Source: Trypanosoma brucei (Eukaryota). Taken from it: a stretch of 64,000 bases of DNA. Below, in pieces: positions 40,620 to 64,000 of this stretch (position 1 is the stretch's first letter; the number at the start of each line of letters is the position of its first letter). The position numbers and the translations under genes were made by a program. A model generated the notes under the pieces. That model ran no database searches. It was not told the origin of the DNA and saw only the letters and a list, made by a program, of their open reading frames with translations. Location: contig CP000071.1 of the NCBI GenBank assembly GCA_000002445.1, forward strand, positions 1,664,001 to 1,728,000, in the 5' to 3' direction.

Positions 40620-40763
40620 AGTTTGCTCGATGTTTAGATTGTAACGCAACAAGCAACAACGCAAACGTTAACCTCTATTCTTTCCGTGTTTGCAACGTAC
40701 AAACATAATCTTAGAATCCCATAGGGGATATTTACTTGCGTTGTTCAGGTGACTGAGGTTAGA

Positions 40764-42803
40764 ATGCTACACGCTAGTGGTAATGGCGCGGTAGGTGACG
40801 GTGAAGAGGAGTCTACTGGTTCCTTCATTCCTGACATGCAAAAAGTAAATGCAAAATTGCGTAACTTGCCTACGCTGGAACGACTCCTGCAGGAAAAAGA
40901 TCCCAATGAGTTCACAGATGAGGAAATGGGCAACGCTCTGAAGTTTGTTGAGGCAATTGCGGGGACTGAGGTGTCGACGACTCAAACCATTGAGCAACAG
41001 CTCCGTCAGCTCATGAAAAAATATTCTGTTGTAATAAAGAAATCACTGCTTCTCGCTGCATACAGGAAGTGGTTAGCAGAGGACCAACGGCGGACCGGCA
41101 ACGCCGTGTTGGAGCGTTACTTAATTTCGAAAGCCCCACGCAGTCAGTCAGGGGTGCTGGTAGTGACTGTCTTTACCTCCGCCTACCCGGAGGGGCAAAA
41201 GTTTAGCTGCAAGTGGAATTGCTACTATTGTCCCAACGAGCCCGGGCAGCCGCGTAGTTACCTCCTTAACGAACCTGGTGTGCGCCGTGCAAACCGCTTA
41301 GAATTCGACCCCTACCGCCAGTTTCAGGACCGTGTGAGGTCGCTTGTCGCTATTGGTCACCCAGCGGACAAGGTAGAGCTTTTGGTACTGGGAGGTACGT
41401 GGGAAAGCTACCCACTCTCCTACCGTGAGACTTTCATTAGGGATCTTTTTTACGCCGCTAACACATTGTATGATGATGATGCGAGTAACAGCGACTCTAC
41501 CGTTACCGAAGAGAGGAAGAGGGGTGCGACCGCCGGGGAAAGTGGAAGACCACGGCCTCCACTGGACTTACTGCAGGAGCAACTCCTGAATGAAACAGCC
41601 GCTTGTAAGATTATTGGGGTAACCCTTGAAACGCGGCCCGATACCGTGAATGAGGAAATGTTGCGGCAGCTGCGTCGGTTTGGTTGCACACGCGTACAGC
41701 TTGGTGTGCAGCACACAGATGATGCAGTCCTGCTTGCGGTCAATCGGCAATCCACGAGGGATGAGGCGGTTCACGCCATTAAGTTGCTGAAGGACAGCTG
41801 CTTTAAAGTTGATATCCACCTAATGCCAGACCTTCCGGGGTCTACACCAGAGAATGACAAGAAAATGTTTTCTGACGTTCTATACTCACCCGAGCTACAG
41901 GCTGATCAGTGGAAAATTTATCCCTGCCAAACGACGCCCTTCAGCGTTATCGAAGAGTGGTACAAGGAGGGAAAGTATCAACCCTATGGTCTTACCAATT
42001 TGATTGACGTCATTCTCTTTGCTAAACGGCGCGTTCAACCATGGGTGCGACTCAACCGTGTAGTGCGTGACATTCCGCATGATTACATACTTGGTGGAGT
42101 GGACGTGTCAAATCTCCGCCAGCTACTTGCGGTTCGCCTTGCTGAGGAGGGTTCCCGCTGCCAGTGCATCCGCTGCCGTGAGGTTAAGGGTGATGCAGCA
42201 GCTGCTGCAAAGCTTCGAGAGGCTGTGCTGGTGGAGCGGCGTTATTCGGCGAGTGAAGGAGAAGAAGTGTTTGTCTCCTGTGAATCAGCTGATGGTTTAA
42301 CACTTTTTGGTTTCCTGAGAATTCGAATTCATATAGAAAACTGGGAAACACCTTTCGAGGAGCTTAAATCGTGCGCGTTAATTCGAGAATTGCATGTGTA
42401 TGGCAGCCTTGTCCCGGCGCACACAGAGGCAGACAACGCTAAAGCACAACACCGCGGGGTAGGTACAAAGCTGTTACAGCGGGCGGAAAGCATAGCTCGG
42501 AAAGAAGGATACCACCGCATCGCCGTTATTAGCGGTGTAGGGGTGCGCAATTATTATCGTTGCAAAGGTTACGCTCTCTTTACAGGTCCCGAATCCGGAG
42601 ATTTTCTCATAAAGGAGTTGCAAGATGGCGAAGAAAGTGAAAAAGCTAAGGTGGATGACCATCAACAGTGTAGCAATGATGCGAACCAGAGGGACTCGAC
42701 ACAGGCTGCTGATGGTGGGGACGCAGCTGGTTCCGTTATTACAAGCCTGTGGAGCCGCTTAACTTCCTTTTGGCAGGGGCTTAAGCGGCCCCGAGGCCAG
42801 TGA
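40764..42803 (+). CDS. ELP3: Elongator complex protein 3 (ELP3), combining radical-SAM and GNAT acetyltransferase domains, with an acidic C-terminal extension.
   Basis: The radical-SAM cluster is CKWNCYYCPNEPG (CxxxCxxC). YDPYRQFQDRVRSLVAIGHPADKVELLVLGGTWESYP matches the ELP3 consensus. The GNAT motif RELHVYGSLVPAHTEADNAKAQHRGVGTKLLQRAESIARKEGY compares with RELHVYGSVVP...QHQGFG. There are about 60 extra C-terminal residues, DGEESEKAKVDDHQQ... Confidence 0.9.
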   Translation: MLHASGNGAVGDGEEESTGSFIPDMQKVNAKLRNLPTLERLLQEKDPNEFTDEEMGNALKFVEAIAGTEVSTTQTIEQQLRQLMKKYSVVIKKSLLLAAYRKWLAEDQRRTGNAVLERYLISKAPRSQSGVLVVTVFTSAYPEGQKFSCKWNCYYCPNEPGQPRSYLLNEPGVRRANRLEFDPYRQFQDRVRSLVAIGHPADKVELLVLGGTWESYPLSYRETFIRDLFYAANTLYDDDASNSDSTVTEERKRGATAGESGRPRPPLDLLQEQLLNETAACKIIGVTLETRPDTVNEEMLRQLRRFGCTRVQLGVQHTDDAVLLAVNRQSTRDEAVHAIKLLKDSCFKVDIHLMPDLPGSTPENDKKMFSDVLYSPELQADQWKIYPCQTTPFSVIEEWYKEGKYQPYGLTNLIDVILFAKRRVQPWVRLNRVVRDIPHDYILGGVDVSNLRQLLAVRLAEEGSRCQCIRCREVKGDAAAAAKLREAVLVERRYSASEGEEVFVSCESADGLTLFGFLRIRIHIENWETPFEELKSCALIRELHVYGSLVPAHTEADNAKAQHRGVGTKLLQRAESIARKEGYHRIAVISGVGVRNYYRCKGYALFTGPESGDFLIKELQDGEESEKAKVDDHQQCSNDANQRDSTQAADGGDAAGSVITSLWSRLTSFWQGLKRPRGQ

Positions 42804-47750: not shown

Positions 47751-48207
47751 TGCGCCTAAGGGGAAGGAGACATTACCAGCGCCACTTGCTGGGCTGGCTC
47801 CTGCAAAGGCGAAGATGCGTGAGTTAACTTTTCTGCATCGCCAATCGATGTGGCCCATGTAAACTTTGTCGCGACCCACATTCGGTGGCACACCTTTCTT
47901 TTTCCATTTCCATTCCCTTGCGACACCACGAACGGGGGCCGTGAATCGTCGAATGGCAGAATATTGTGGCCCTTTTCGATTTGTCCGTGGAGTGTTGAGA
48001 CGCCTACTCGTACTTTATGGTCTGCAGTATCATTGCTGCGTTTTTTTTTTCCTTCATCCGTGCACTCGTGGTACCCTGTCAAATTACACTTCTATGCCCA
48101 CTCTTGTTTGTTCTCGCATTATATTCCCACAAAATGAATACTGAAGCAACAGCCACGTTAACAACTGGTGAGCACTAAAACTCTTTTTTTTTCCCCTTGC
48201 GACCCGT

Positions 48208-49344
48208 ATGGAGCATGAGAGGGGGAGTGGGCTCACTTTGGCGCCGATGAAGAAGAAGCGAGGTCAACACCAACAACATGCCATACCAGGTAGTCAGAAG
48301 CGTGTAACTGGCACTCGCATCAAAAGAGGTCTCGATGAATTGTACAATCTGGATGCGGTGCCTCAGCAACAATCACAGGAAAGTCAACCTTCGCCTGGGC
48401 GAGTAAGCAAATGTAACGACAGGGGAAAGGGGAAAAGCTCCAAGGCCTCCTCTACGGCCGAAAATCCTTTGATGCGAAGTGCGGTACAAGGGATATCTAC
48501 TAATGGTGAAAAGACTGCTGTATCGGTGGCACAGAGGAAGGAAGATGACGGACCCATTGTGGCAACTGCAATTATAAAAATGGCTGATACTTCTGAGTAC
48601 TGTGGAAGTTCACCTCCCACCGTATTTGGCTACAATTGGGAAGAGTGGAAAAGTGTCAAACAACACCTGTTCAACCCAACGGAGACGGCTGGTTCGGCGG
48701 CGGCGCGGCGCAAGGCACTCGACCACATTGAGCTTGTGTGGAAGGCTCGCGCCCGTGAGGGTCGACCACTTCCTTCCTATGTGGAATCAACAGCAATGTT
48801 ATTGGAAGCTGTTTCGCTTGATGAGAGCAACAAGATGTCATCAATAGCAATTACAGCACTCTACGGTGCCGTGATATCCCGAGCTGTCCACGTAATGACG
48901 GGTGAATTCGCGCGAGGCGCAGACGACACGTATCGAAAGAGAGCTCAGGCGATTGGCTTCCCTGAAGAAGCAGTGGAAGTACGTCAACGTGTGTCACACG
49001 GCGCTTTACCGTTATTAACGGAGTTACGCTGGGTTTGTGGATTGGTGTTGCAGTTCCTGTTTCATAACTACTGGTTAGAACAGGAACGGCATTTGCACTG
49101 TATGGAACAAGAGGAAAAGGAGGCAGAGGTGGAGGTGGAGAAAGTGAACAAAAATACAAGGGACGCACATAAAGTTGTATCCAACCACGCAACAGTGGAG
49201 GAGATGCGTTGGCTTCTTGATGCGCTTAGCGATGATTGTGAGGAAGACGAAGATACTCCGGGTGGAGATTCGTGTGAAGAATGTACTAACGACGGTTTTC
49301 ATGATGCTGATACAATCCGTGTAGGTGATTGGACGCTCTCTTAG
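48208..49344 (+). CDS. Las1-like HEPN-domain protein, a candidate pre-rRNA ITS2 endonuclease subunit, 378 aa.
   Basis: WEEWKSVKQHLFNPTE..ARRKALDHIELVWKARAREGRPLPSYVESTAMLLEAV is collinear with the yeast Las1 N-terminus VPWRDFAELEELKLWFY..KRQRAVQRVQSYRLKGSQYLPHVVDSTAQITCAVLLDE. RQRVSHGALPLLTELRWVCGLVLQFLFHNYW aligns with RHWGTHERDLPGLEMLRWAANEALSWLYDHYW. The HEPN R-x4-H motif (R..RVSH) is at about 48979-48996. There is a basic N-terminal extension. Confidence 0.65.
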   Translation: MEHERGSGLTLAPMKKKRGQHQQHAIPGSQKRVTGTRIKRGLDELYNLDAVPQQQSQESQPSPGRVSKCNDRGKGKSSKASSTAENPLMRSAVQGISTNGEKTAVSVAQRKEDDGPIVATAIIKMADTSEYCGSSPPTVFGYNWEEWKSVKQHLFNPTETAGSAAARRKALDHIELVWKARAREGRPLPSYVESTAMLLEAVSLDESNKMSSIAITALYGAVISRAVHVMTGEFARGADDTYRKRAQAIGFPEEAVEVRQRVSHGALPLLTELRWVCGLVLQFLFHNYWLEQERHLHCMEQEEKEAEVEVEKVNKNTRDAHKVVSNHATVEEMRWLLDALSDDCEEDEDTPGGDSCEECTNDGFHDADTIRVGDWTLS

Positions 49345-51758: not shown

Positions 51759-52269
51759 AAGGAAGTTCTTTCCTGTACCTGGTTCCAAGATTGATGGGGT
51801 AACAGCGTTGTTATTGTACCTTTGGAGCAGTGGTGGATCAGAGAATAAGAAGTCAATGTATCTCTGGCTTGTCCGTATTGTAAATGCCTTCATAACTCTC
51901 TACAGTACCGTTTTGTACCGTCACGAAGCATACGTGCTTCTCTTATATCATTTTTTTTTTCTTGAGTTCGAAGCCACCACGAAGTGAGGGACTACAGAGG
52001 ATTAGTTCTACCCCTTCCCATTCAACTGTCCACGGGCTTTGGAGGGCCATCGTGGCGAGGGGGGCTGAGTTCTAGAGAACGAGTTCCCAGAGTCAGAGGC
52101 CACGGCGCCCTCAGGAGCATTAGTGGGACACACAGCACAAGGAAGACGTAAAGGGGTTGTCGGTAGAATAACTGGAAAAAAAATGGAGCCGGGACCGGAG
52201 TCGACAGGCTTCGACACTTCTAAATTTCTCCAGTTTCTTTTCGCCACACTCTTTCTCTTCGTGTGTGTT

Positions 52270-55200
52270 ATGGTTCTCATCATGTATCAACACAAGCTGC
52301 TCAGCTTCGCCGTTCAGACTGTTCTGCGCTATTGTTTCTTGCCATCAACCTCACGAGTTCACCTGGGCGGTCTTCTTCTGTCTCCTCCCGGATGTCGGAT
52401 ATTCTTCCAGAATTTCTTTTATCAGGACGAGAACATGACACTACGTGTCACGGACGGTTACATTTCTTTTGTTTTTTGGGATTCTTGGTTTGGTGATCCC
52501 TCATGGGCAAAGGTGCGGGATTTCATGATGAAGGATGATCTGAAGGGAACACAGTGCTTGGCAAAGGTGAAAACGAAGTGGGTGCGTGGTGTAATTGTCG
52601 ACGTTGAGCGGTCCAAGCGAAAATTACTCGTGCGTTTGGAAAGCGGGGAGCCGGTTAATAGAGAATCAGACCCCGCTCCTCTAGTCGACGATGAGAGGTT
52701 CAACAATTTGGACTGGGGCTCGGAGCTACATGAGATGGCTGATGTGGACGGTGCCTCAAATTCTGTGGTGGGACACAACGGTGATGAAAACACCAGCCAT
52801 CGTAGCAGCTATAACTTGGAGCATAGTAGAGAAAGTCACAGAACAGTCCCCACCAGGCAGCGGGAGGTGAATGTATCATGTGCATCTATTCCCTCTACTA
52901 GCGCCCGAATGTTCTACGCACCAGATTGCCGTAACAGTGATGCCAATTCGAAAGGGGGTGGCGGTGACGGAAATTACAGCAGTGTTACCGCAGTCCATGT
53001 GGAACCTGAAGTGGGAATCAACGGTGAGCCACCCGAGTCTGTAAAGCTCCTTGACATGAGCTTGGTACGCATCCAAAAAAAATGTGGTAGGGTTCGTGTT
53101 CATCTTAACGGAATGGAACTCACCTTTTACAACGCCACGGGAAACTATCGAAAGAGTGAGACCGTGGAAAGAAGCGAACAGGAGAGGAAGCCGAGGCATA
53201 ACGATTCAGTCTTCAAGAGTTTGTGGGGCATCTTCCGACCCCTTTGCAAAAGTGAGAATGATTCCACCGCTCCACGCGACCCCATGGAAGGGAGAGAACA
53301 GCGGCAGCACGAAGGGCTGGAAAGTGAGGAAGAAATGTCGAGCAGGGTAGAGGATACCGGTGTCGAGGATGTCTTTGACGGTGCGCGCACGCGAGCAACC
53401 GTGGAGCAGCACCGCCGGAAGAACACAAAGAGCATCATGCAACGCTTTTATGACTTCGTTGGGGCGGTGGAAGTGGAACTCTTCACAAGCTACGTGAACA
53501 TTGGCGGTGCTGCCGCCGAGCACCCATATTTCCTCCGTGTTGGGTTTAAGCGGGCTGATGGTCTTAGCTATTTAGCTCAAGAAGGCGTTCCGAGCGTTGA
53601 CATATGCCGTCTCGTCACGGAGGCAACGCTAGAAGAGTTGTGTGTCCGCTGGTTTCCCATGAAAAGTACTGAGGAGCAGCATGAGCCAAGAAGCGTGTGG
53701 GACAAGTGGCGGGATTCTTTCTTGCTATACTGCGAAGGTGTGCCACCAGAGCAAAAACCAGAGCCCCTACTCGACGAGCCCGCCGTCCTGATTAAGGACT
53801 ATGGGACAATCATCGGTGACAAGGAGGAATCATCGGCCCACCTCGTTTACTATCGCGACTTCCCCAACGTTTACGCTGGGGAAGAAGTCAGTTGTCAGTC
53901 TGATTTGCCAAAATCGGGTATTGAACTTCTTATTGATACACCAGACTTGTGCCATGGACCGTGGTCCAATTTTTCTATAATGCAGTTGAAAGAATATTTC
54001 GTACCCAATACATACCAGTCGGTTGAGTCACTCAAATTTGAACTAGGTAAGAAACGACCTCACGGATGCTTTGAGATTTACATCGAGCTCCTACGTGAGA
54101 CGTCTCTCATCATACCGTTTAAGCGGAAGACCATCGCACCTACTCCGCCTTTTGGGTTGTGCGACTCGGGTCGGAAGGGGATGGTAGCTGTAACGCTTGG
54201 GCGTGGTTCATCGTATGTGCAAAAGCTGAAAAATCCCCTCCCCCACGAAGAGAAACAGTGCATGGAGAGCTTACTAACGGGGTTGGATGTGTTGGTTGCG
54301 ACCAATGCGATACAGGAGGAGAGCGCGGTGTGCATGAGCATGGACAAAATTGAGCTTTTCGTTGACAAACTTAGTGACAAACCGTACAATGGGCGCAAAT
54401 TGTGGAACATTCTCCCTGTAATGGAAAATGCAGAGGTGTGGTGGCACATGGATTATATAAGCTTCTTCGGCGACCTCTGTCTTGACTGGCTATTTGTGCC
54501 GCACATGTACCATGGAAAGCCCTTCACAACTGAAGAATACAACACGTATAAGTTATTCGTGGAGGAATTTATACCAACCGTCAGGAGGTTTGAGTGTATC
54601 TTTGCAGGAACTTTCAAAATTCACCTGAATGGTAACATGCACAATGCCATTTACAGCGAAAACATCAATGACAAAGCGGCGAACGTATTCTTAACGCTGT
54701 CCACGAAAACTGGTGGTTACATGTTTGTGACGGTGCCTTCAGATTCGTATCTTCTGAGTTCCGTCACGGAAGTGCGGCGGCCGTTCGAGATATCAGTGTC
54801 AGGCATCGAGCTGTTTCTGTCGGTGCCTCACAGTCACCCGCTGCACGAACTTGTCGACATTTCCAGTCCATTTGGCTGCGTTGACAAACTATTTGTGAAA
54901 GGTATGCACACGGTCAACGTACCCAATCAAACTGTACCACAAGACATGGACCCGATAGATCCCGAGACGGGGCAAAGTAAGTTGAGGAACTATTTGGACT
55001 ACGAATTTGACATAACGGGAGTGCGCGGTCATCTAATGGCGCCGCATATCGCCACTTTCACAGAGTTGTTTGAAAACTTATTTGGAGGTTCCTCATGTGT
55101 AGTGCGACCAGACGAGCTTTTCTGGCCACTGTCCAAAATTCACCCAAAAATTAACACGCCGAAAAACGTCCGTAGTGCCTTCCACACGTACCTTCAGAAG

Positions 55201-58200
55201 GACCAACCTCCTACCAATAGTTTGGACTTCAACACAACGGTCAAATTCACTGACATTGACGTCACGCTGCGGACGGGAGAAGCTAAATCTCCCCAAGTGA
55301 ACCTGCGCTTCAGCACGCTAGATATTACCGTAATGAGACAGGCTAGTGTGACAGACATAGGCCTTACAATATCCCCAATATACGGTCGTCTTCCTGCTCC
55401 TCTTACGGGGGACCTTGCAGACTCTACATTCCTGTGTTGTGGTGATGTTTCATTGGGTATTGTAAGGCACTTTGGGCTCCCGCCATTGCGAACTTTATTT
55501 TACAGTGCGTCCGAATGCGTTGTAGATGGCATCTCCTTCTATATGACTGTGGAGCAGGTGGCATTGCTAACAGAGTTATTTACGACCCTCAGGAAACAAT
55601 TCTTTAAGAGCGATGAGGGCCTGCTTGCAGAAATTGAAAAGGCACGAACCGTAGCAGCGTATTCTGCGGACAACTGCGTACTGACCACGCCCGCACAGGG
55701 AGGGAGGCGGCGTGTACCCACAAGTGGGAGGCCGCCGGCATGCTTCAGACGCGTGCGAACTTCCTCCCTACTACCCAGGCCGCGGGGAGAGGAAAACGCA
55801 AGGTGTAAAGCCGCACGCTTAACGCTTATTCGATTTCTCACCCACGGTGGGCCGTTTCTGAAGATTCCCTTCTCCGAACTAGTTCCCGCAGTTGTGGCAA
55901 GTGGATTTCAGGAGTTTCTTGAGCAATTGGACGAGGCAGAGGACTCTGCAAAGGACTACGCAATTCATACGATACTCGTATCAATACCTTCTGTACAGGG
56001 TTGTGTGGCTGTGGGTCCTGACAATTACTTTGAGGTAAAGTTTCCATCAGGCGTCCAGCTGGTTTCAACCACCAAGAATGATCTCAACTCCAATGTGCGT
56101 ACAACAGCCGCCCTCCGTGGTATTGAATTGTGTGGATATTGCCGGAGTAGCAACCACAACATCAAAGATGAGACAAGCCCCTTTGCTGAGGTGTTTCGTC
56201 TTGAAACATCACTTCATGTACAGCGCAGCGTCGCCTACCCTTTTGACAAAGGGCTCGAAATACACAGGAAGAAGCAGCGCCACTTCGTGTTTGAACACGA
56301 CACAGACAGGTTCTTTACGTCAGCGCTTGCTCACGTGCGCAGGCCATGCATGCGGGACGAAAGTTTACAGGACTCAAAAGGGGGGGCTGACGACCCGCAC
56401 TTGTCCTTCTTTCTGAAAGGGGAAGAGGAAGAAGGAGACGAAAGGGAGCTGCGGAGTGCAGGGGTACTTCACAAATTACCAGTGTATAATCAAGATGGAA
56501 AGAACGGAGGAGACTCAGTGGAGGACTGCAAGAATGAAGACGGACCCACGGAGGCCACGCACCACCAGGGATGCGAGGGCACCGCAGCACCTCCTCAACA
56601 ACTTAAGTGCTCAGGCAGAGAAGCGGAACAATCAGCTGGAAATGTATCCACACTAACGAACACCAGAATGGGCATACCTGCGGGTGGAAGCTCGCTGGTT
56701 GAAAGTGACGAGAGCGATGGAACGAGTTTCAATAAAAGCGAAACGAACGCCTTCGCTACATGTGTGTCACAAACAGACGAGCTACTCTCCTATAGTGATG
56801 AGGATGATATGATGAAAGAGCTGTGTGAAAGCGATGATGTCTTTGAGCGCGGCATCTGTAGCACCAGCCACACCCCTGACGATGAGTTCAGTAGGCGGGT
56901 GGACCACCTTCCGGATGAGTGCAATGACTTGATAACCAACTCACTGGATTGTGTGTCGTCAGTGTCTGCATCGCCAAGAGCGTCGGAGGGTAATACTACG
57001 TTGAGTCGAAAGCTAATCACTTCCACACACTTCTTGCGCCGATTCTCCTTTGACCGTCCGGATTCCCAGAAAGACACGCCCGATGGGTGTGACAACACGG
57101 CGCATAACAAGCGTGTGATCGCGAGGGATCGAACCCACTTCCGGGCACCGATGCCCACAGTGGGTTTCGTTCCCTCGAAAAGGCCACCCACAACCCCGAC
57201 ACTTCGTATGCTGCAGCGAACAGTTGATGCATGTAACGGCAATGTTGGTGGCGAAGGTGAGAGTGCCTTCTGGAGTGCCGAGGGGGCGGGAATGTGGGCG
57301 AAGCGGACTGCCGATAACCGCAAACGCTCGCAGGAAGGCACCACGTCCAAACAGATGCATGTTGAATTCTTGGCACCACTAAACTGCCTTGTGGCACAAG
57401 ACTTTGTGGAAAAGCTACTCTTCGATGCGAACACAAGGCTTCAGTCCGTGTTTGCCACACATAACCTTTATTCTTCACTGGATGGAGGAGAAACAGCAGA
57501 CACTGCAGCGGCCCCAATGTTGCCGGTGAGGCATATGAGGCAGACAAGTGGTTTGAAGGGGATGCGGAACTTGATTAAAAGTTCATCGACTCCCGCTGAG
57601 AAGGAGATGAAGAATCTGTTTGCACGCAAGCAGCCAAGCCGAAATCGCGCGCATCAGAAGCGCTGGTATTCTGAAGTGGATATCTGGAGCGTCTGCATTC
57701 CATCCACACGAATAAGTGTTGTGACAGATTTTCCACTGCCCTCAGATAATGTGGTGCACGATGCCCGGGCACGTGGCGTTTACAGCACGCAGTTATGCGC
57801 GCGGTCGGCACAAGTGGTGATGCAACAAACACACCCACCGCCACGTGCTACAAGGCAGGATGAGACGAAAACGTTTTCGTTGTCCACCACGTGTTCATCT
57901 CTCGCTGTCATCACCCAGATCGAGCACGAACCCCTCCTTCGGAGCGATAACCCGTTTGTGAGGGTCCCAGGGATTGATTATGACAGAAAGGACACACTCG
58001 CCGTCTTATACTTTACTTCGATTCGTGGCCGCATGCGCCATCAAAACACGCAGGGTATACAAAACGGTATCTACCATTTATCCGTAGACACTATCGCCCT
58101 TCACGCCGCTCGCGACTTCTTCTTCTACTTGCACTCTACACTGGCGTTGTGGGAACGACTTAATGGAGCTTGGTGTGCACAAGAATATCCTCGCTGGTAC

Positions 58201-61200
58201 CGTGGGCGACCTTCACCAGAAACCTGGAGCAGCCACAACGATGACAACGAGGCCCGTGAGGGGAGTCACGGTGCGCCGGGAAGCTCTGTGGCGCACTTTG
58301 AACATTTACATTCTGCTGTACCAACGACCCGGAACTATGGCATTGAAGGCAGTCGCGTCTTTCAGGGTGTGGGGTCCATACGGGTTGTCCGTTTGGAACT
58401 CTTAGACGTGTCCCGCGACGGTCACTACTTGCGCGTGGACACGCGCTGTCCCAACGTGGTCGAAATAAGCCGACTGCAAGCGAAGTTTGTCGTGCGGGTA
58501 CCAATGAAGCGCGCGCACGACCCCCTGTCCGTCCCATCGAGGCCCCTTGTGAGGCAGAATTCTTCGGTGACATTGAGCTCCAGTGAAGTGTGTTCAGGGT
58601 TTGTGCCGAGTCAGGAATGGAAGCGTCGACCACCCCAACTCAGTACGGTGCAGATTCAATTTATTGGCGAAGTGGAGCATGCCGTGGCGAGGTGTTTTCC
58701 CTCACTATTGCATATCATGGGAGCGGTAAAGGGGAGCGAATGGGTAGCGGATTCGCCAATAGAAATCATATCTGAATCTAAGTGTTCCAAAACCCCGAAT
58801 GATGAGGGAGGCTCACCAGAAGTGGATTGTGGATTCTCTAGTCAACCTCGGGCAGACGCGGCGAATGATTGTAACCAGGTGACATTTAGAGGGAGCTTTG
58901 CACTCGGTAACATTGATGTGTGCATGATTCAGTCCGAAATGAACTTTCTCCAAATAAAGGGTACTGGGCTCGCGGGGTTTGGGGAAGCGCGGGCAGAAGC
59001 TATCAACTCGCGGGAGTGCGTGAAGACGCATGTTCTAACAGAAGCATTCTCTGAGCGGATTAAACGGCAATTACGTGCATGGGCGGACAGAGCCCGCACA
59101 GCCGCCCCCAAGGGTCACTATCCCACTCCTCCTTCCGTGACACCTCAGCTGCGTATGAAAAATAGCGGGTTCTTCGCAGCGGAGACCATGAGGCTGCAAT
59201 ACGTTGCAGACGTGGTAGCACCTTGTACAGATGGGTTTGAAGTTATCGATTATGAGGAGGTGAGTGAGAAAACTCACCGTCAGGATCCGCGCGTCTTCGT
59301 TGCGAGCACTAAACAGCTTCGGGTTGACATGCACCATGCTGAACAAGAAGGCCCTCGGGGTAGTGCCGAAGGGTGTAAAACGGACCCACCAGACACCAGT
59401 TGGGTAGCTGACAGCTCTGAAAAAGGTGAACAGGTCAATGTGCAAGTGGACATTGGAAGTGCGGTGCTATCACTGCCATATCGACCGAAGGCTAGTGAAA
59501 TTGTGCAGCCGCAACTTCAACAGTGGGTTCACGAATGGCTGGGCCCGTCGGTACTACAAACAATGTACACTTCGCAGACGGTTTTGGCCGGCGGCTATCA
59601 CCTCGGGGTGAGACCACAGAGCAAGATATATGCATGCTGCTGTTCTTTGCGAGTTCGTGACGCGCTTCTGCAGAGTGACCTTCCACAAAATATGACTTCT
59701 AACCTGACGATTCCCCTTGCGTCGCTTTTCTTGAATGCCTCCTCAGAGGGGCGATTGGCACTAAAGGGGCATTTGCATCCCACCAAACTATCATCGTCCA
59801 GCCCAACGTCTGGAAGACACACAATGAGTCTGCCAAATATTTTCGTTTTCTACAACAGTGATCGGCTAAGGCGTTCGGGCATGTGCCTGACAGAAACCGT
59901 GGAAGTGACCGTGTCTCCCATCATCGTTAGTCACTTGCTTTTTATTTTCAACCGGGCGTCGACCGTACGCTCAACCCTTACAAAGATTTTCAAACCAGGA
60001 GAAGCCGAACAGGTGGATCCACAGCAAAAAGTGGGAAATTTAAATCTTCAAGACAACCAGAGGAGAAAGAGTAACTTTTTACTGCTGGTCGAAGGACTCC
60101 GCATATCTTATCTCACCTCCATGACTAACATGCGCTTTTCCGCCTGGCGGTTAAAGGGGAGGATGTACACAACCGAGGATGATGACTTGTGCAGGTCCCA
60201 TATGACTCTGAAAGTCGCGAATGTGCAGGTCGCCCTTGTGGACCGTGATGACTATGATCAACTTCAAACCTTCCTTCACCAGTCGGAGTACCTTCAGAAA
60301 CGTGCGGAGAGCTCGAGTGGGAGATCTTCGAAAGAAAAACTGATGTCGTCTTCGTTGCCAAATTCACTGGATCAGGAACGAAAGCGGTCGATCAGCACGC
60401 TCAACGGGTTTATATGGGGTCTATTCGAAACGTCTCTCACATTGTCCACTGGGCGGAGTGATACAAATGAACTCCACTCAGCACTTAAAAGCATTGCTGC
60501 AACTGCGCCTGTGAGAACCTCTGTAAGTCTTCGCAGTTTGGGGAACGTGGGCAATACCGCCACACGCTGGAACGTGGCCATATTTTCACCGCTTCTTATC
60601 GCCCGCGTTGGGTTAGCTCAACTGTTGCAGCAATCAATTGATGAGGCGAAGGAACTGGCGGACAAAATGCACCGAGCTGCAAGGCGCGAAAGTCGGAAAT
60701 ACCACCGTCAACTCGCAAAATCCGCTGTGTATCAGCGTTTAACGCGCTTAGAGCGGCGGGAAAGCCAACAAATGCTTAGCACACAACGTCAACAGGTAGA
60801 GCGCCTTATTGCGTTAACAAACAATGTAATACCAGGGCAAAGTGGGGCAAGTCAGCGACGCGCTTCAATTGCGCTTTCGGTGGAACCAAGTTGTGAGGAC
60901 GTGGTGGAGGGAAGTATATTCCAAACCACCTCCGACCATAAGTTCTTCGTGACGATGACTAATTTTCTTGCTGTTGTCCCGTTTGGGGACGCGCCTTATC
61001 GTACAATATTGGAGGGCACCACCGACGCCTCCCACCGTGGATGCCCCAGTGATGTTTTATTAAACCGCAAGGACTTTGTTCCGACTATGGCGATGAAGGT
61101 GAAGGTGGAGGGCACTACTGTTGTGTGCCGAGCCCTCATGTCACAGCAGCGAGTGCCCCTGTTGCCAACCAAATCAGTAGGGGCACTGCGAAGCGACGGT

Positions 61201-64000
61201 ATCGGTGCTTTTTTGGGTGCCACTGATTCTTCCACAGGGACGAGGCAGATATTTACGTCGAAGTTTATGCTTAGTGATGCGCACTTTTACTGCAGTGACG
61301 GCTCACCGCTTGAGCGAGGCACATCAGCCAAAAGTGTGCTCAGCAGCACGCACGTATTCGGTGGTATTGGTACCCTCACGAGCCCCGGGAAGGGAGAGTA
61401 CCGTAATTCGCTTTCGAAGGTATCGTTCAACTCTATTGAAATACCTTTGCATATCAACAGGTGTGGAAGGAGCGTGAGCATTGGGTCGGTAATGGATATG
61501 AGTGCCCCGCAGATCTCCGTGTCCACACAAACTGCAAGCATCCTCAGCCAGTTCACGAATGAGATGTCGACCAAGTCTCTTTCTTCCGTCTTCCGGCACC
61601 GCGAAGGCGGCGCGGACGCGAAGACAAAATCAGCAGAGGTGATTGCAGAACCGTCTGGTATACATACAGCATCTGGTGGTCCCGAGAGATATAGGCGGGA
61701 AAGAGGAAGGAGGACACATCATACTGATCCAGAGTGCCCAGTAACTAGTGTGCTGCAACAGGCTGAACTGACGCCCATATTGTACAACTTTGACGTGACG
61801 GCACGTCTTGAAGCGGGTGAAATGTATGTTTACTCTATTCAAAGAGGTACCGCAACCAACACTAATGCGTCATCGCAGCAACTGGGAAGCACAGTGAACA
61901 AGGTAAACCGAACCTCAAAACGACAGGTGAAATTCAAACCCATTGCACCAGGCGGAGAAGCCGAGTTTCCGGGTAGTCCAAGGGTTCCGAGCGGACTTGC
62001 AGCCAAAAAGCTGATGTCTGTTCTACTTAAGATACCTCTCCCCGAAGTGACAGCAATGGTAATGGGAAGCTATGGTGGGAGCATGGCAGACGAAGAGCGA
62101 CTTATCGCCCGCGTGGAGATAAGGGAAAACACAATCGAAATAGATCCCTCCATAATTTCACTAGCCCACGAGATTGAGGAATGGGAGGTGATACAGGCTC
62201 GCGATAGTGCAGAGCACGTTGCCAATACACTGAAACTTGTCAAAGGGTGGGAGAGGGATGAAGAAATAAAACATCTCGCCCGCTACTCCACTGTTGCAGA
62301 TGTGGCGTTGCCGCTTCCCCGCGCGTTCCTGTCCGTGCTATCAAATGCAGAATTACAATCAAAGAAGGCAGTAGCGCACCAAAATTTGGGACGCTTGGGG
62401 AACTCTCACCAACCAAAGACAACATCACCACCTTCGCTACAGGATCAAGAGAAAAGGCTTCAGCATGGGCACGAGGATGCGCCAACAAATCATAGTGATG
62501 GGAAACGGAAATTACTTAGTGTGCAGATCCGTGTTACAGAGTTCCGTCTTGTGCTAACCACAGAGCCCGCGTCAAACATAAGCTTCACCCTTTCCCTTGA
62601 TGATCGAGTGGGAAGTGTTGATTTCTTTATAAAGCGGATTCAGACACCATCTACTACGTGGATTGAGGATGTACCAGTGTACAGCCCTCCTGTTGTTCTA
62701 CTACTACTATGTGTCCGCCGTCTGCGTGTGGAATGTCAAGCCAAGATGGAGGTGAAGTCCGTGGAAATGTATCTGCAAGAAGTGGAAGCGCAAGCAGCAC
62801 TACAACAGCACGATAATGCTCTGGTGCTCACGAACGTCTACGTACACCTTCCAAGAGATGCATCAAGTAGCGGAAAGATGGAGCTGACGGTGCGCGCTCC
62901 ATACGTGTCGCAGATGTTCATTTTTCAGGCGTTGTGGCAGCGTAGTTTATTAGAGTCACTGGCCAGCATAAACCGCATTTTTGATCGGGGTGCTGCCATC
63001 TTCAGGGAAAAAATGAAGGCCAATCCGTATATCCGGCGGCGCGGGGTTGCTACAAAGCAGGCGGAGAGGTCGTTAGTTGTTGCTGTTACGGGATCACACG
63101 GAAATGTGCGGGTCGACTTGGGGTCTGGTAACGCCCATTTGGTGTCTGTGGGGAGCATGAGCCTCGCACTGGTGATAGCACAGTCGTCCATTGATCAGGC
63201 GCAAAAGGTATGTATCGACGCTTCGGTGAGGAGCATCATGCTCCGCTCAGAGGGAGTTCTTTCCGGCGTGGCGAGGGTTGACACAATATATTTAAAGGGA
63301 TTCTCTCTATCTAATAGTGGTGGATCAACCAAGGTCGTGCGGTCCCCTGCAGGGCGGACGTTCCGATACTTGCTTTGTGCGCAGAAGTTGCATGCTGTGT
63401 TCAAGGAACGGCAACTGAGGGACTTACTCGAGGGCCAGGTTGGGGAAATTATCCTCAACTTCATGGACAGCACGGGCGAAGGGGTTGCGACAAACGTGAG
63501 GCTGGACGTATCCTTGAGCCGCAGTAACGTAGTCATAACGCCCAGTACGGCCCCCACTTTCGTGCGTACGTTTACCGATTGGTGTAATATTGTCGCGGAG
63601 CAGAGTGCGGCAGCGAAAATGAAGTTGGCGAAATTGGGCATGGAGACGGGCCACACCTCACCAGAAGAGGATAAGGGAGAAAGTGGTCGCCTTGCTGAGC
63701 AGGAAGTTGGATTCCATGCTTCTGGAACTCGCGCCGGTAGAGGGTCAAGCAGTCGAGAGGGTCGACCACCCTTGCATGACAATTTCAATATCACGCCATC
63801 GTTCGTTGCGATACCCGAAGAAGAAGAACAGGGTCAAGATAAGGTCATTAAAAGCAAGGATGGGACGTGCAGCAGTAGCAATAGTGATGCAGAGAGCACT
63901 TCCTATATTCCATTTATGGGCAACAAACTCACTCGTATTCCCTGCGGGTCAATAGAGGTTGTGCTTGATCGCTCTTCCATCCTTCTTGGCAACGCCTCGG
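52270..64000 (+). CDS. Giant protein, truncated at the window end, with more than 3900 codons. It has an N-terminal TM anchor followed by a long beta-rich repeating architecture, best guessed as a bridge-like lipid-transfer protein of the BLTP1/Csf1/Tweek or FMP27 type.
   Basis: One continuous frame, with positions congruent to 1 mod 3, runs from 52270 to 64000. I hand-translated 52270-55600 and 59400-64000 with no stop and verified the frame at 53083, 59425 and 59941; 55600-59400 rests on coding-like composition and the absence of competing ORF-track ORFs. Read straight from the displayed sequence lines this ATG falls one base later (52271), so exact coordinates here carry a +/-1 uncertainty. 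The N-terminus FLQFLFATLFLFVCVMVLIMY is hydrophobic. Upstream in frame there is a TAA about 110 nt before the ATG (~52160). The C-terminal part is rich in amphipathic beta-strand repeats such as NVRVDLGSGNAHLVSVGSMSLALVIAQ. I found no chorein-N motif, which argues against VPS13. Confidence 0.6.
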   Translation, partial: MVLIMYQHKLLSFAVQTVLRYCFLPSTSRVHLGGLLLSPPGCRIFFQNFFYQDENMTLRVTDGYISFVFWDSWFGDPSWAKVRDFMMKDDLKGTQCLAKVKTKWVRGVIVDVERSKRKLLVRLESGEPVNRESDPAPLVDDERFNNLDWGSELHEMADVDGASNSVVGHNGDENTSHRSSYNLEHSRESHRTVPTRQREVNVSCASIPSTSARMFYAPDCRNSDANSKGGGGDGNYSSVTAVHVEPEVGINGEPPESVKLLDMSLVRIQKKCGRVRVHLNGMELTFYNATGNYRKSETVERSEQERKPRHNDSVFKSLWGIFRPLCKSENDSTAPRDPMEGREQRQHEGLESEEEMSSRVEDTGVEDVFDGARTRATVEQHRRKNTKSIMQRFYDFVGAVEVELFTSYVNIGGAAAEHPYFLRVGFKRADGLSYLAQEGVPSVDICRLVTEATLEELCVRWFPMKSTEEQHEPRSVWDKWRDSFLLYCEGVPPEQKPEPLLDEPAVLIKDYGTIIGDKEESSAHLVYYRDFPNVYAGEEVSCQSDLPKSGIELLIDTPDLCHGPWSNFSIMQLKEYFVPNTYQSVESLKFELGKKRPHGCFEIYIELLRETSLIIPFKRKTIAPTPPFGLCDSGRKGMVAVTLGRGSSYVQKLKNPLPHEEKQCMESLLTGLDVLVATNAIQEESAVCMSMDKIELFVDKLSDKPYNGRKLWNILPVMENAEVWWHMDYISFFGDLCLDWLFVPHMYHGKPFTTEEYNTYKLFVEEFIPTVRRFECIFAGTFKIHLNGNMHNAIYSENINDKAANVFLTLSTKTGGYMFVTVPSDSYLLSSVTEVRRPFEISVSGIELFLSVPHSHPLHELVDISSPFGCVDKLFVKGMHTVNVPNQTVPQDMDPIDPETGQSKLRNYLDYEFDITGVRGHLMAPHIATFTELFENLFGGSSCVVRPDELFWPLSKIHPKINTPKNVRSAFHTYLQKDQPPTNSLDFNTTVKFTDIDVTLRTGEAKSPQVNLRFSTLDITVMRQASVTDIGLTISPIYGRLPAPLTGDLADSTFLCCGDVSLGIVRHFGLPPLRTLFYSASECVVDGISFYMTVEQVALLTELFTTLRKQFFKSDEGLLAEIEKARTVAAYSADNCVLTTPAQGGRRRVPTSGRPPACFRRVRTSSLLPRPRGEENARCKAARLTLIRFLTHGGPFLKIPFSELVPAVVASGFQEFLEQLDEAEDSAKDYAIHTILVSIPSVQGCVAVGPDNYFEVKFPSGVQLVSTTKNDLNSNVRTTAALRGIELCGYCRSSNHNIKDETSPFAEVFRLETSLHVQRSVAYPFDKGLEIHRKKQRHFVFEHDTDRFFTSALAHVRRPCMRDESLQDSKGGADDPHLSFFLKGEEEEGDERELRSAGVLHKLPVYNQDGKNGGDSVEDCKNEDGPTEATHHQGCEGTAAPPQQLKCSGREAEQSAGNVSTLTNTRMGIPAGGSSLVESDESDGTSFNKSETNAFATCVSQTDELLSYSDEDDMMKELCESDDVFERGICSTSHTPDDEFSRRVDHLPDECNDLITNSLDCVSSVSASPRASEGNTTLSRKLITSTHFLRRFSFDRPDSQKDTPDGCDNTAHNKRVIARDRTHFRAPMPTVGFVPSKRPPTTPTLRMLQRTVDACNGNVGGEGESAFWSAEGAGMWAKRTADNRKRSQEGTTSKQMHVEFLAPLNCLVAQDFVEKLLFDANTRLQSVFATHNLYSSLDGGETADTAAAPMLPVRHMRQTSGLKGMRNLIKSSSTPAEKEMKNLFARKQPSRNRAHQKRWYSEVDIWSVCIPSTRISVVTDFPLPSDNVVHDARARGVYSTQLCARSAQVVMQQTHPPPRATRQDETKTFSLSTTCSSLAVITQIEHEPLLRSDNPFVRVPGIDYDRKDTLAVLYFTSIRGRMRHQNTQGIQNGIYHLSVDTIALHAARDFFFYLHSTLALWERLNGAWCAQEYPRWYRGRPSPETWSSHNDDNEAREGSHGAPGSSVAHFEHLHSAVPTTRNYGIEGSRVFQGVGSIRVVRLELLDVSRDGHYLRVDTRCPNVVEISRLQAKFVVRVPMKRAHDPLSVPSRPLVRQNSSVTLSSSEVCSGFVPSQEWKRRPPQLSTVQIQFIGEVEHAVARCFPSLLHIMGAVKGSEWVADSPIEIISESKCSKTPNDEGGSPEVDCGFSSQPRADAANDCNQVTFRGSFALGNIDVCMIQSEMNFLQIKGTGLAGFGEARAEAINSRECVKTHVLTEAFSERIKRQLRAWADRARTAAPKGHYPTPPSVTPQLRMKNSGFFAAETMRLQYVADVVAPCTDGFEVIDYEEVSEKTHRQDPRVFVASTKQLRVDMHHAEQEGPRGSAEGCKTDPPDTSWVADSSEKGEQVNVQVDIGSAVLSLPYRPKASEIVQPQLQQWVHEWLGPSVLQTMYTSQTVLAGGYHLGVRPQSKIYACCCSLRVRDALLQSDLPQNMTSNLTIPLASLFLNASSEGRLALKGHLHPTKLSSSSPTSGRHTMSLPNIFVFYNSDRLRRSGMCLTETVEVTVSPIIVSHLLFIFNRASTVRSTLTKIFKPGEAEQVDPQQKVGNLNLQDNQRRKSNFLLLVEGLRISYLTSMTNMRFSAWRLKGRMYTTEDDDLCRSHMTLKVANVQVALVDRDDYDQLQTFLHQSEYLQKRAESSSGRSSKEKLMSSSLPNSLDQERKRSISTLNGFIWGLFETSLTLSTGRSDTNELHSALKSIAATAPVRTSVSLRSLGNVGNTATRWNVAIFSPLLIARVGLAQLLQQSIDEAKELADKMHRAARRESRKYHRQLAKSAVYQRLTRLERRESQQMLSTQRQQVERLIALTNNVIPGQSGASQRRASIALSVEPSCEDVVEGSIFQTTSDHKFFVTMTNFLAVVPFGDAPYRTILEGTTDASHRGCPSDVLLNRKDFVPTMAMKVKVEGTTVVCRALMSQQRVPLLPTKSVGALRSDGIGAFLGATDSSTGTRQIFTSKFMLSDAHFYCSDGSPLERGTSAKSVLSSTHVFGGIGTLTSPGKGEYRNSLSKVSFNSIEIPLHINRCGRSVSIGSVMDMSAPQISVSTQTASILSQFTNEMSTKSLSSVFRHREGGADAKTKSAEVIAEPSGIHTASGGPERYRRERGRRTHHTDPECPVTSVLQQAELTPILYNFDVTARLEAGEMYVYSIQRGTATNTNASSQQLGSTVNKVNRTSKRQVKFKPIAPGGEAEFPGSPRVPSGLAAKKLMSVLLKIPLPEVTAMVMGSYGGSMADEERLIARVEIRENTIEIDPSIISLAHEIEEWEVIQARDSAEHVANTLKLVKGWERDEEIKHLARYSTVADVALPLPRAFLSVLSNAELQSKKAVAHQNLGRLGNSHQPKTTSPPSLQDQEKRLQHGHEDAPTNHSDGKRKLLSVQIRVTEFRLVLTTEPASNISFTLSLDDRVGSVDFFIKRIQTPSTTWIEDVPVYSPPVVLLLLCVRRLRVECQAKMEVKSVEMYLQEVEAQAALQQHDNALVLTNVYVHLPRDASSSGKMELTVRAPYVSQMFIFQALWQRSLLESLASINRIFDRGAAIFREKMKANPYIRRRGVATKQAERSLVVAVTGSHGNVRVDLGSGNAHLVSVGSMSLALVIAQSSIDQAQKVCIDASVRSIMLRSEGVLSGVARVDTIYLKGFSLSNSGGSTKVVRSPAGRTFRYLLCAQKLHAVFKERQLRDLLEGQVGEIILNFMDSTGEGVATNVRLDVSLSRSNVVITPSTAPTFVRTFTDWCNIVAEQSAAAKMKLAKLGMETGHTSPEEDKGESGRLAEQEVGFHASGTRAGRGSSSREGRPPLHDNFNITPSFVAIPEEEEQGQDKVIKSKDGTCSSSNSDAESTSYIPFMGNKLTRIPCGSIEVVLDRSSILLGNAS

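What the first reader, a model, noticed from the sequence alone, without database searches (positions are those of the whole stretch)
48208..49344. Compact Las1 (HEPN nuclease) homologue with an intact R-x4-H motif and a basic N-terminal extension
The collinear matches to yeast Las1 are listed in the feature evidence. The catalytic HEPN R..RVSH lies at about 48979-48996. The protein is only 378 aa and ends in a short acidic tail, so the long C-terminal Grc3-binding region of fungal and metazoan Las1 appears to be reduced or absent. About 140 basic residues are added at the N-terminus. How such a minimal Las1 couples to a Grc3-type polynucleotide kinase in kinetoplastids, which process their rRNA unusually, is open.
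Basis: partly seen in the sequence, partly recalled or inferred. Interest (0 to 1): 0.5.

Follow-up and report, generated by a model that had tools for sequence, protein, structure and literature searches.

The report
Trypanosome Las1 rRNA-processing nuclease gene
This gene is the trypanosome version of Las1, the enzyme that cuts the spacer between the 5.8S and large-subunit ribosomal RNAs; databases already label it Las1-like, so it is ordinary apart from a lineage-specific layout with a new N-terminal motif and no middle domain.

Summary
The ORF at 48208..49344 (+), 378 aa, is real and is a Las1-family HEPN protein. It matches Pfam PF04031 at E=9e-34. An AlphaFold model of the core matches only solved Las1/LAS1L structures. 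The motif R259-Q-R-V-S-H264 (nt 48982-48999) aligns with human RHELTH. The protein is 100% identical to the public entry "Las1-like, putative" (Trypanozoon), so the identification is not new.

What is missing is the central coiled-coil/helical domain, which in fungi and humans binds Ipi3/WDR18 and helps bind ITS2. A helix (TVEEMRxLL) and a terminal GW-x-L tail are conserved in relatives. They sit where the short Grc3/NOL9-binding tail lies in yeast and human, although no significant sequence match could be shown. A Nol9/Grc3 gene is reported in T. brucei.

- **N-terminal extension:** it is predicted disordered but carries a strongly conserved motif, [KR]R..G.RI[KR].GL.EL..LDA.
- **Start codon:** orthologues start at M14, so the first 13 codons are doubtful.
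- **Active-site motif:** RQRV[A/S]H departs from the published RHxhTH consensus at positions 2 and 5.

Interest is low to moderate.

The parts
48208..49344 (+). Annotated Las1-like ORF, 378 aa plus stop codon
   Evidence: It is 100% identical to NCBI 'Las1-like, putative [Trypanosoma equiperdum]' and to the UniRef Trypanozoon entry. It is called as the same gene on GCA_001457755.2 contig CZPT02000324.1.
48181..48198 (+). Polypyrimidine tract directly upstream of the ORF, a possible trans-splicing signal. The first AG after it is at 48212-48213, inside codon 2.
   Evidence: Read directly from the sequence. Whether it acts as a splice signal is inference only.
48247..48249 (+). ATG of M14, the probable true start codon
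   Evidence: Most orthologues begin at this column, and M14 is identical in at least 90% of alignment A1. A 11-codon out-of-frame uORF (48215-48250) ends in a TGA that overlaps this ATG.
48295..48360 (+). Clade-specific N-terminal motif QKRVTGTRIKRGLDELYNLDAV (aa 30-51). The consensus is [KR]R..G.RI[KR].GL.EL..LDA.
   Evidence: R32, G35, I38, G41, L42, L48 and D49 are invariant in A1. The motif is present without gaps in 50 clade members, including more distant RN..AH-type relatives. AlphaFold predicts the region to be disordered, pLDDT 45-55.
48628..49077 (+). Las1 HEPN domain (aa 141-290)
   Evidence: Pfam PF04031 at E=9.3e-34. The AlphaFold core has pLDDT 85-98. The top 16 Foldseek PDB hits are all Las1/LAS1L chains, with rmsd 2.3-3.1 A over about 150-160 residues for the HEPN-only chains.
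48982..48999 (+). HEPN catalytic motif R259-Q-R-V-S-H264
   Evidence: It aligns with human LAS1L RHELTH and C. thermophilum RHQATH. R and H are invariant in every aligned relative that covers the motif.
49186..49236 (+). Conserved post-HEPN helix HATVEEMRWLLDALSDD (aa 327-343) followed by an acidic linker
   Evidence: L337 is invariant, and L336 and L340 are nearly invariant. The pattern [ST]-V-x-[ED]-[MI]-[KR]-x-[LF]-L recurs across the clade. AlphaFold predicts a helix at 317-328 in M14 numbering.
49312..49341 (+). C-terminal tail TIRVGDWTLS (aa 369-378) with conserved Trp375, a candidate Grc3/Nol9-binding tail
   Evidence: A Trp lies within the last 5 residues in 41 of 53 clade members. The ending W.[LIVMF].{0,2}$ occurs in 40 of 53 clade members against 2 of 95 canonical Las1. 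AlphaFold predicts a beta-hairpin with pLDDT 66-79. Homology to the yeast or human tail is not shown.

Best explanation
This is the trypanosome orthologue of Las1/LAS1L, the HEPN endoribonuclease that starts removal of ITS2 from the large-subunit pre-rRNA. By analogy with the solved fungal and human complexes, two HEPN domains would dimerise so that two R-x4-H motifs (R259 and H264) form one composite active site. That site would cut ITS2, leaving a 2',3'-cyclic phosphate and a 5'-OH. The partner kinase Nol9/Grc3 (reported in T. brucei as XP_846962.1) would phosphorylate the 5'-OH so that a 5'-3' exonuclease can trim to the mature end.

The trypanosomatid protein has a different layout from the yeast and human enzymes:
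- A disordered N-terminal extension of about 125 residues carries a basic, NLS-like stretch and a strongly conserved short motif.
- The HEPN domain follows.
- There is no central coiled-coil/helical domain.
- One conserved helix, an acidic linker and a terminal GW-x-L tail complete the protein.

I infer that the tail anchors the kinase.

Shown here: family membership, the fold, an intact and conserved R/H pair, the lineage-specific architecture, and the conservation of the three extra motifs.

Inferred: dimerisation, ITS2 as the substrate, Grc3 binding through the tail, and any role of the N-terminal motif.
For: - **Family match:** Pfam Las1 scores E=9.3e-34 over the whole profile.
- **Solved relatives:** PDB sequence hits go only to LAS1L/Las1.
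- **Fold:** the AlphaFold core has pLDDT 85-98, and the top 16 Foldseek PDB hits are all Las1 chains.
- **Active site:** R and H of the motif are invariant in every aligned relative that covers the motif. FPEEAVEVRQRV[A/S]HG is nearly invariant in kinetoplastid orthologues.
- **Orthologues:** they occur across Trypanosoma, Leishmania, Leptomonas, Phytomonas, Strigomonas, Novymonas and Porcisia.
- **Partner kinase:** one Nol9/Grc3-group gene is reported in T. brucei and in L. infantum (PMC10598085).
- **Localisation:** trypanosomal Las1 is said to be nuclear (PMC12702573).
- **Minimal complex:** human HEPN plus a short C-terminal segment is enough for the NOL9 complex (PMC11976907).
- **Tail:** the C-terminal Trp tail is conserved in 41 of 53 clade members.
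Against: - No experiment on the trypanosome protein was found in the library searched.
- The motif RQRV[A/S]H departs from the published Las1 consensus RHxhTH at positions 2 and 5. In yeast, H2D and H2R are lethal, and position 5 must be T or S. Most kinetoplastids have A there (bioRxiv 10.1101/760058).
- The domain that helps bind ITS2 in yeast is absent.
- The C-terminal tail shows no significant sequence similarity to the fungal or human Grc3/NOL9-binding tails. hhalign gave probability 1%, and the PDB profile search found no Las1 hit.
- The Grc3 partner could not be retrieved or examined here.
Confidence: 0.8

Rival explanations
1. The protein is a Las1 nuclease with a broadened or shifted substrate range. 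It would also cut, or mainly cut, one or more of the kinetoplastid-specific spacers ITS3-ITS7 that fragment the LSU rRNA. The altered motif (Q at position 2, A/S at position 5), the loss of the ITS2-binding central domain and the new N-terminal motif would then reflect this role.
For: The endonucleases for ITS3-7 are not known; TbLrRP1/2 are required for late steps but are not nucleases (PMC12702573). In yeast the intervening motif residues influence cleavage fidelity. The clade-specific motif and architecture are shown.
Against: There is no direct evidence. The same changes fit simple lineage drift with compensating changes in the partner. The unnamed RN..AH-type relatives share the architecture, and their rRNA processing is unknown.
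Confidence: 0.12
2. The protein is a catalytically weakened or purely structural Las1, a pseudo-nuclease that only scaffolds the Grc3 kinase on pre-60S particles.
For: Positions 2 and 5 of the motif differ from the residues that yeast Las1 needs. Most kinetoplastid orthologues have Ala at position 5.
Against: R and H are invariant, and the whole FPEEAVEVRQRVxHG block is under very strong constraint. This is not expected for a dead active site. The yeast H2N variant is viable, so a polar amide at position 2 is tolerated. Other eukaryotic Las1 representatives also have A at position 5, for example RHEAAH.
Confidence: 0.05
3. The ORF is a chance open frame or a mis-annotation and does not encode a protein.
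For: None beyond the doubtful first 13 codons.
Against: Pfam scores E=9e-34. There are 42 homologues with conserved motifs along the whole length. The AlphaFold core is confident.
Confidence: 0.01

Closest known systems
Saccharomyces cerevisiae Las1 (502 aa; PDB 7y18, 8j5y) in the Las1-Grc3 RNase PNK complex
   Same: Same Pfam family and HEPN fold. The catalytic R and H are equivalent (R129/H134 in yeast, R259/H264 here). A Trp-containing tail lies at the extreme C-terminus.
   Different: Yeast has almost no N-terminal extension. It has a 250-aa coiled-coil domain (181-430) and an LCT with W488, W494 and F499. Its motif is RHWGTH. The trypanosome protein has an N-terminal extension of about 125-140 aa with its own conserved motif. 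Only 83 aa follow the HEPN domain, the motif is RQRVSH, and the tail has a single Trp (GDWTLS).
Human LAS1L (734 aa; PDB 9dun, 8fl2)
   Same: It is the best PDB sequence match (E=3.7e-11). VEVRQRVSHGALP aligns with VDLRHELTHKKMP. The NOL9-binding element is a short Trp-containing segment.
   Different: Human has a helical domain that binds the WDR18 coiled coil, an NBM (619-675) and a vertebrate-specific C-terminal TEX10-binding motif. The trypanosome protein has none of these as recognisable sequence.
Chaetomium thermophilum Las1 (363-aa chain in PDB 8puw; also 6of2, 6of3)
   Same: Similar total length. It gives the best structural matches (Foldseek E=3.6e-5, rmsd 2.3-3.0 A over about 157 residues).
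   Different: In Ct the 363 aa are used as HEPN plus a coiled-coil domain (aa 179-344) plus a tail, with no N-terminal extension.

Membership tests
Las1 / LAS1L (Pfam PF04031) | Significant match to the Las1 family profile over its full length | tested here: met
   E=9.3e-34, 117 bits against a gathering score of 22.7. Residues 141-290 cover profile positions 3-148 of 149.
Las1 / LAS1L | All-helical HEPN fold like solved Las1 structures | tested here: met
   The AlphaFold core has pLDDT 85-98. The top 16 Foldseek PDB hits are all Las1/LAS1L. Target-normalised TM-score is 0.67-0.83 and rmsd 2.3-3.1 A for the HEPN-only chains.
HEPN nucleases | R-x4-H motif with invariant Arg and His | tested here: met
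   R259 and H264 (nt 48982-48999). Both are invariant in every aligned relative that covers the motif.
Las1 / LAS1L | Las1-specific consensus RHxhTH: H at position 2, hydrophobic at 4, T (or S) at 5 (bioRxiv 10.1101/760058) | tested here: not met
   The motif here is RQRVSH. Position 2 is Q, which is the rule in the kinetoplastid-type clade. Position 4 is V, which fits. Position 5 is S in this protein only and A in the other clade members. This is a departure in the specialised residues, not in the catalytic pair.
Las1 / LAS1L | Central coiled-coil/helical domain between HEPN and tail, which binds Ipi3/WDR18 and helps bind ITS2 | tested here: not met
   Only 83-89 residues follow the HEPN domain, against 250 for the coiled-coil domain alone in yeast. 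The median post-HEPN length is 111 aa in the clade and 304 aa in canonical Las1. The model shows one extended helix plus one short helix.
Las1 / LAS1L | C-terminal Grc3/NOL9-binding tail (LCT/NBM) with Trp anchors | tested here: inconclusive
   A conserved terminal GW-x-[LIV] is present in 40-41 of 53 clade members. hhalign against fungal tails gave probability 1%, and the profile search of PDB found no Las1 tail.
Las1-Grc3 (RNase PNK) system | A Nol9/Grc3-group polynucleotide kinase in the same genome | not testable with these tools
   The literature reports Tb-Nol9/Grc3 as XP_846962.1, 1034 aa, on chromosome 8 (PMC10598085). It is not encoded in this window, and its sequence could not be fetched.
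Las1-Grc3 (RNase PNK) system | Endonucleolytic cleavage of ITS2 at site C2, dependent on the HEPN R and H | not testable with these tools
   No experimental study of the trypanosome protein was found. PMC12702573 states only that an orthologue exists and is nuclear.

The most novel reading that the evidence does not exclude
Trypanosomatid-type Las1 would be a distinct architectural class. It has lost the Ipi3/WDR18-binding helical domain. In its place, the invariant N-terminal motif [KR]R..G.RI[KR].GL.EL..LDA would attach the nuclease-kinase module to the pre-60S particle or to a Rix1-like complex. With its altered active-site motif (RQRVAH), it might also carry out one or more of the kinetoplastid-specific LSU spacer cleavages whose nucleases are unknown.
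Probability: 0.15. Interest if true: 0.55.

Novelty: already known. Interest (0 to 1): 0.25.

Why it matters
The gene identification adds nothing new. The protein is already in NCBI and UniProt as Las1-like, and a 2025 paper mentions a nuclear trypanosomal Las1 orthologue.

Three details could be useful for people who study ribosome biogenesis in kinetoplastids:
- **Missing domain:** the domain that ties Las1 to the Rix1 complex in fungi and humans is absent.
- **New motif:** a short N-terminal motif is conserved as strongly as the active site, and nothing is known about it.
- **Variant active site:** the motif differs from the consensus at two positions that matter in yeast.

These give concrete mutants to test. 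They also offer a possible parasite-specific interaction surface in an enzyme that is essential in yeast and probably essential here.

Tried and rejected
1. **Second homologue search.** Searching with the alignment A2 returned only the same kinetoplastid-type proteins and added nothing.
2. **Taxon names.** The cluster look-up of ten unnamed relatives gave no organism names. I therefore cannot say that the architecture extends beyond trypanosomatids by name.
3. **N-terminal motif versus the vertebrate TEX10-binding motif.** I considered that the N-terminal motif RIKxGLxEL might be a relocated version of the LAS1L C-terminal motif (...[LI]KxGLQLF). An HMM of the N-motif did pick such a tail (P0097, RIKSGLQLF) as its best hit among 95 canonical Las1. 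However, E was 0.21 in that tiny database, and the motif is described as vertebrate-specific. I rejected this as chance resemblance.
4. **C-terminal tail versus fungal and human tails.** hhalign placed the GW on the first fungal Trp (GW[SYE].) but with 1% probability. The PDB profile search found no Las1 tail. This remains unproven.
5. **Grc3 sequence.** The supplement of PMC10598085 held no Tb-Nol9/Grc3 sequence, and the available tools gave no other route to it.
6. **Grc3 in the window.** None was found; the neighbours are unrelated genes.
7. **AlphaFold database search.** The library was not available.
8. **RNA genes.** The Rfam and tRNA scans of the window were empty.

Full report
**1. The observation.** The window holds an ATG-initiated ORF at 48208..49344 on the + strand, encoding 378 aa. 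The 140 residues before the HEPN domain have 21 K/R and 14 D/E (net +7). The last 83 residues have 7 K/R and 25 D/E (net -18). The description therefore holds. The one correction is that the very end, IRVGDWTLS, is hydrophobic rather than acidic.

**2. Family identity.**
- Pfam gives a single hit, PF04031 (Las1). It scores E=9.3e-34 and 117 bits against a cut-off of 22.7, and residues 141-290 cover profile positions 3-148 of 149.
- phmmer against all PDB sequences finds only LAS1L/Las1 above noise. Human LAS1L scores E=3.7e-11, C. thermophilum Las1 1.5e-8 and S. cerevisiae Las1 1.3e-4. VEVRQRVSHGALP aligns with human VDLRHELTHKKMP.
- A profile of the kinetoplastid orthologues improves these to 5e-18, 9e-15 and 2e-10.
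- An AlphaFold2 model built on 39 sequences has a confident helical core, pLDDT 85-98 for residues 125-300 in M14 numbering.
- The 16 best Foldseek matches in the PDB are all Las1 or LAS1L chains. For the HEPN-only chains, rmsd is 2.3-3.1 A over about 150-160 residues.

Membership in the Las1 family and the HEPN fold are established.

**3. It is already annotated.** The protein is 100% identical over its full length to the NCBI entry "Las1-like, putative [Trypanosoma equiperdum]" and to a UniRef entry for Trypanozoon. The same gene is called on assembly GCA_001457755.2. Named orthologues were found in eight further Trypanosoma species and in Leishmania, Leptomonas, Phytomonas, Strigomonas, Novymonas and Porcisia. 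A 2025 paper states that trypanosomal orthologues of Las1 have been found and are nuclear, but that their function has not been shown (PMC12702573). I found no experimental paper on the trypanosome protein.

**4. Conservation of the active site.** A profile search of 1.84 billion representative proteins found 1289 relatives at E<=0.001. I aligned the 172 sequences in hand to the profile. The first R and last H of the motif are invariant in all sequences that cover it.
- The kinetoplastid-type group has RQR[VIMF]AH. The window protein is the only one with S at position 5.
- A neighbouring group of unnamed sequences has RN..AH.
- The rest have RHxxTH and variants.

The published Las1 consensus, built from fungi and vertebrates, is RHxhTH. 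H2 is described as invariant, and position 5 needs T or S in yeast. H2N is viable, whereas H2D and H2R are not (bioRxiv 10.1101/760058). The trypanosomatid motif therefore keeps the catalytic pair but differs at two specialised positions. The surrounding block FPEEAVEVRQRVxHG is almost invariant in the clade. That argues for a working active site.

**5. Architecture.**
- In yeast, the HEPN domain is residues 1-165, the coiled-coil domain 181-430 and the C-terminal tail (LCT) 430-502. W488, W494 and F499 of the tail insert into the Grc3 C-terminal domain (PMC10942766).
- In human, the order is HEPN, helical domain, NOL9-binding motif (619-675, with W638, W647 and L652) and a vertebrate-specific TEX10-binding motif. 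The helical domain binds the WDR18/Ipi3 coiled coil (bioRxiv 10.64898/2026.09.08.750072; PMC11976907; PMC10702828).
- Human HEPN(1-200) plus residues 614-682 forms a stable complex with NOL9.
- In the kinetoplastid-type clade, the median length before the HEPN domain is 94 aa and after it 111 aa. In canonical Las1 the medians are 18 and 304 aa.

The central domain is what is missing here, not the kinase-binding tail. Total size is not remarkable: the C. thermophilum Las1 chain in PDB 8puw is 363 aa.

**6. Three clade-specific conserved elements.**
- *N-terminal motif (aa 30-51, QKRVTGTRIKRGLDELYNLDAV).* R32, G35, I38, G41, L42, L48 and D49 are invariant among 21 orthologues. The motif is found without gaps in 50 clade members, including RN..AH-type relatives. 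AlphaFold predicts the whole extension to be disordered. This pattern is typical of a short linear interaction motif. The KKKR and KR...RIKR stretches look like nuclear localisation signals, which is my inference.
- *Helix at aa 327-343 (TVEEMRWLLDALSDD).* It is followed by an acidic linker.
- *Terminal GW-x-[LIV]-x.* A Trp lies in the last five residues in 41 of 53 clade members, where about 10% would be expected from the Trp frequency. The ending W.[LIVMF].{0,2}$ occurs in 40 of 53 clade members against 2 of 95 canonical Las1.

By position and by the Trp anchor, the helix and the tail together look like the LCT/NBM. Homology could not be demonstrated: hhalign gave 1% probability, and a PDB profile search found no Las1 tail.

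**7. The start codon.** Most orthologues begin at the residue that aligns with M14, and that Met is nearly invariant. A polypyrimidine tract (48181-48198) lies directly before the annotated ATG. The first AG after it is inside codon 2, at 48212-13. If that AG is the trans-splice acceptor, the annotated ATG is not in the mRNA, and M14 (48247) is the start. In that case a short out-of-frame uORF (48215-48250) would end in a TGA overlapping the M14 ATG. This is inference and needs spliced-leader mapping.

**8. The partner kinase.** A survey of Clp1-family kinases reports one Nol9/Grc3-group gene in T. brucei (XP_846962.1, 1034 aa, chromosome 8) and one in L. infantum (1368 aa) (PMC10598085). It is not in this window. 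The neighbours are unrelated genes, all on the + strand, as expected for a polycistronic unit. They include a ubiquitin hydrolase, an amidohydrolase, a PLP decarboxylase, an FHA protein, a TYW2-like methyltransferase, a protein kinase, an Elp3-like radical-SAM/GNAT protein, a mitochondrial carrier and an NHL-repeat protein. I could not obtain the kinase sequence, so the reciprocal tail contacts could not be checked.

**9. Most likely mechanism and rivals.** The best reading (confidence about 0.8) is a functional Las1. It would dimerise through its HEPN domains, cut ITS2, and work with Nol9/Grc3, which is held by the C-terminal helix and Trp tail. The N-terminal motif is probably a docking site for another factor or for the pre-ribosome. 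Less likely readings are:
- a widened substrate range that includes the kinetoplastid-specific spacers ITS3-7, whose nucleases are unknown (about 0.12);
- a catalytically weakened scaffold (about 0.05).

**10. Verdict.** The suggestion that the Grc3-binding region is lost is probably wrong. The lineage-specific layout and the N-terminal motif are modestly interesting leads. Interest is 0.25.

Noticed in passing
window 52069-63999 (+): A stop-free frame of at least 3977 codons runs off the 3' end of the window, so the ORF listing does not show it. The same gene is called as 4204 aa in T. equiperdum (L001). The only Pfam signal is a sub-threshold BLTP1_N hit (E=8.8e-4, 17 bits against a cut-off of 100). 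It may be a bridge-like lipid-transfer protein.
   Followed up: partly
window 48181-48250: A polypyrimidine tract abuts the annotated ATG, and the first downstream AG is inside codon 2. An 11-codon out-of-frame uORF (ATG 48215) ends in a TGA that overlaps the conserved M14 ATG (ATGA). This suggests the annotated start is 13 codons too far upstream.
   Followed up: partly
window 48994-48996 (codon 263): The Trypanozoon protein is the only member of the kinetoplastid-type clade in hand with Ser at position 5 of the HEPN motif (RQRVSH). All others have Ala. Yeast Las1 needs Thr or Ser at this position.
   Followed up: partly
window 1-51000: All 17 ORFs of 250 aa or more are on the + strand, forming a single polycistronic unit. 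The window has no tRNA genes and no Rfam matches. ORF 40749-42803 combines Radical_SAM, Radical_SAM_C and GNAT domains, which looks Elp3-like. ORF 29582-31138 is TYW2/Trm5-like.
   Followed up: no
proteins P0052-P0067 (unnamed metagenome/transcriptome relatives): A second group of Las1 relatives has the motif RN..AH. Several of them carry the same N-terminal motif and short tails, and several end in Trp (...DDWT...DGWC). Their organisms could not be identified.
   Followed up: partly
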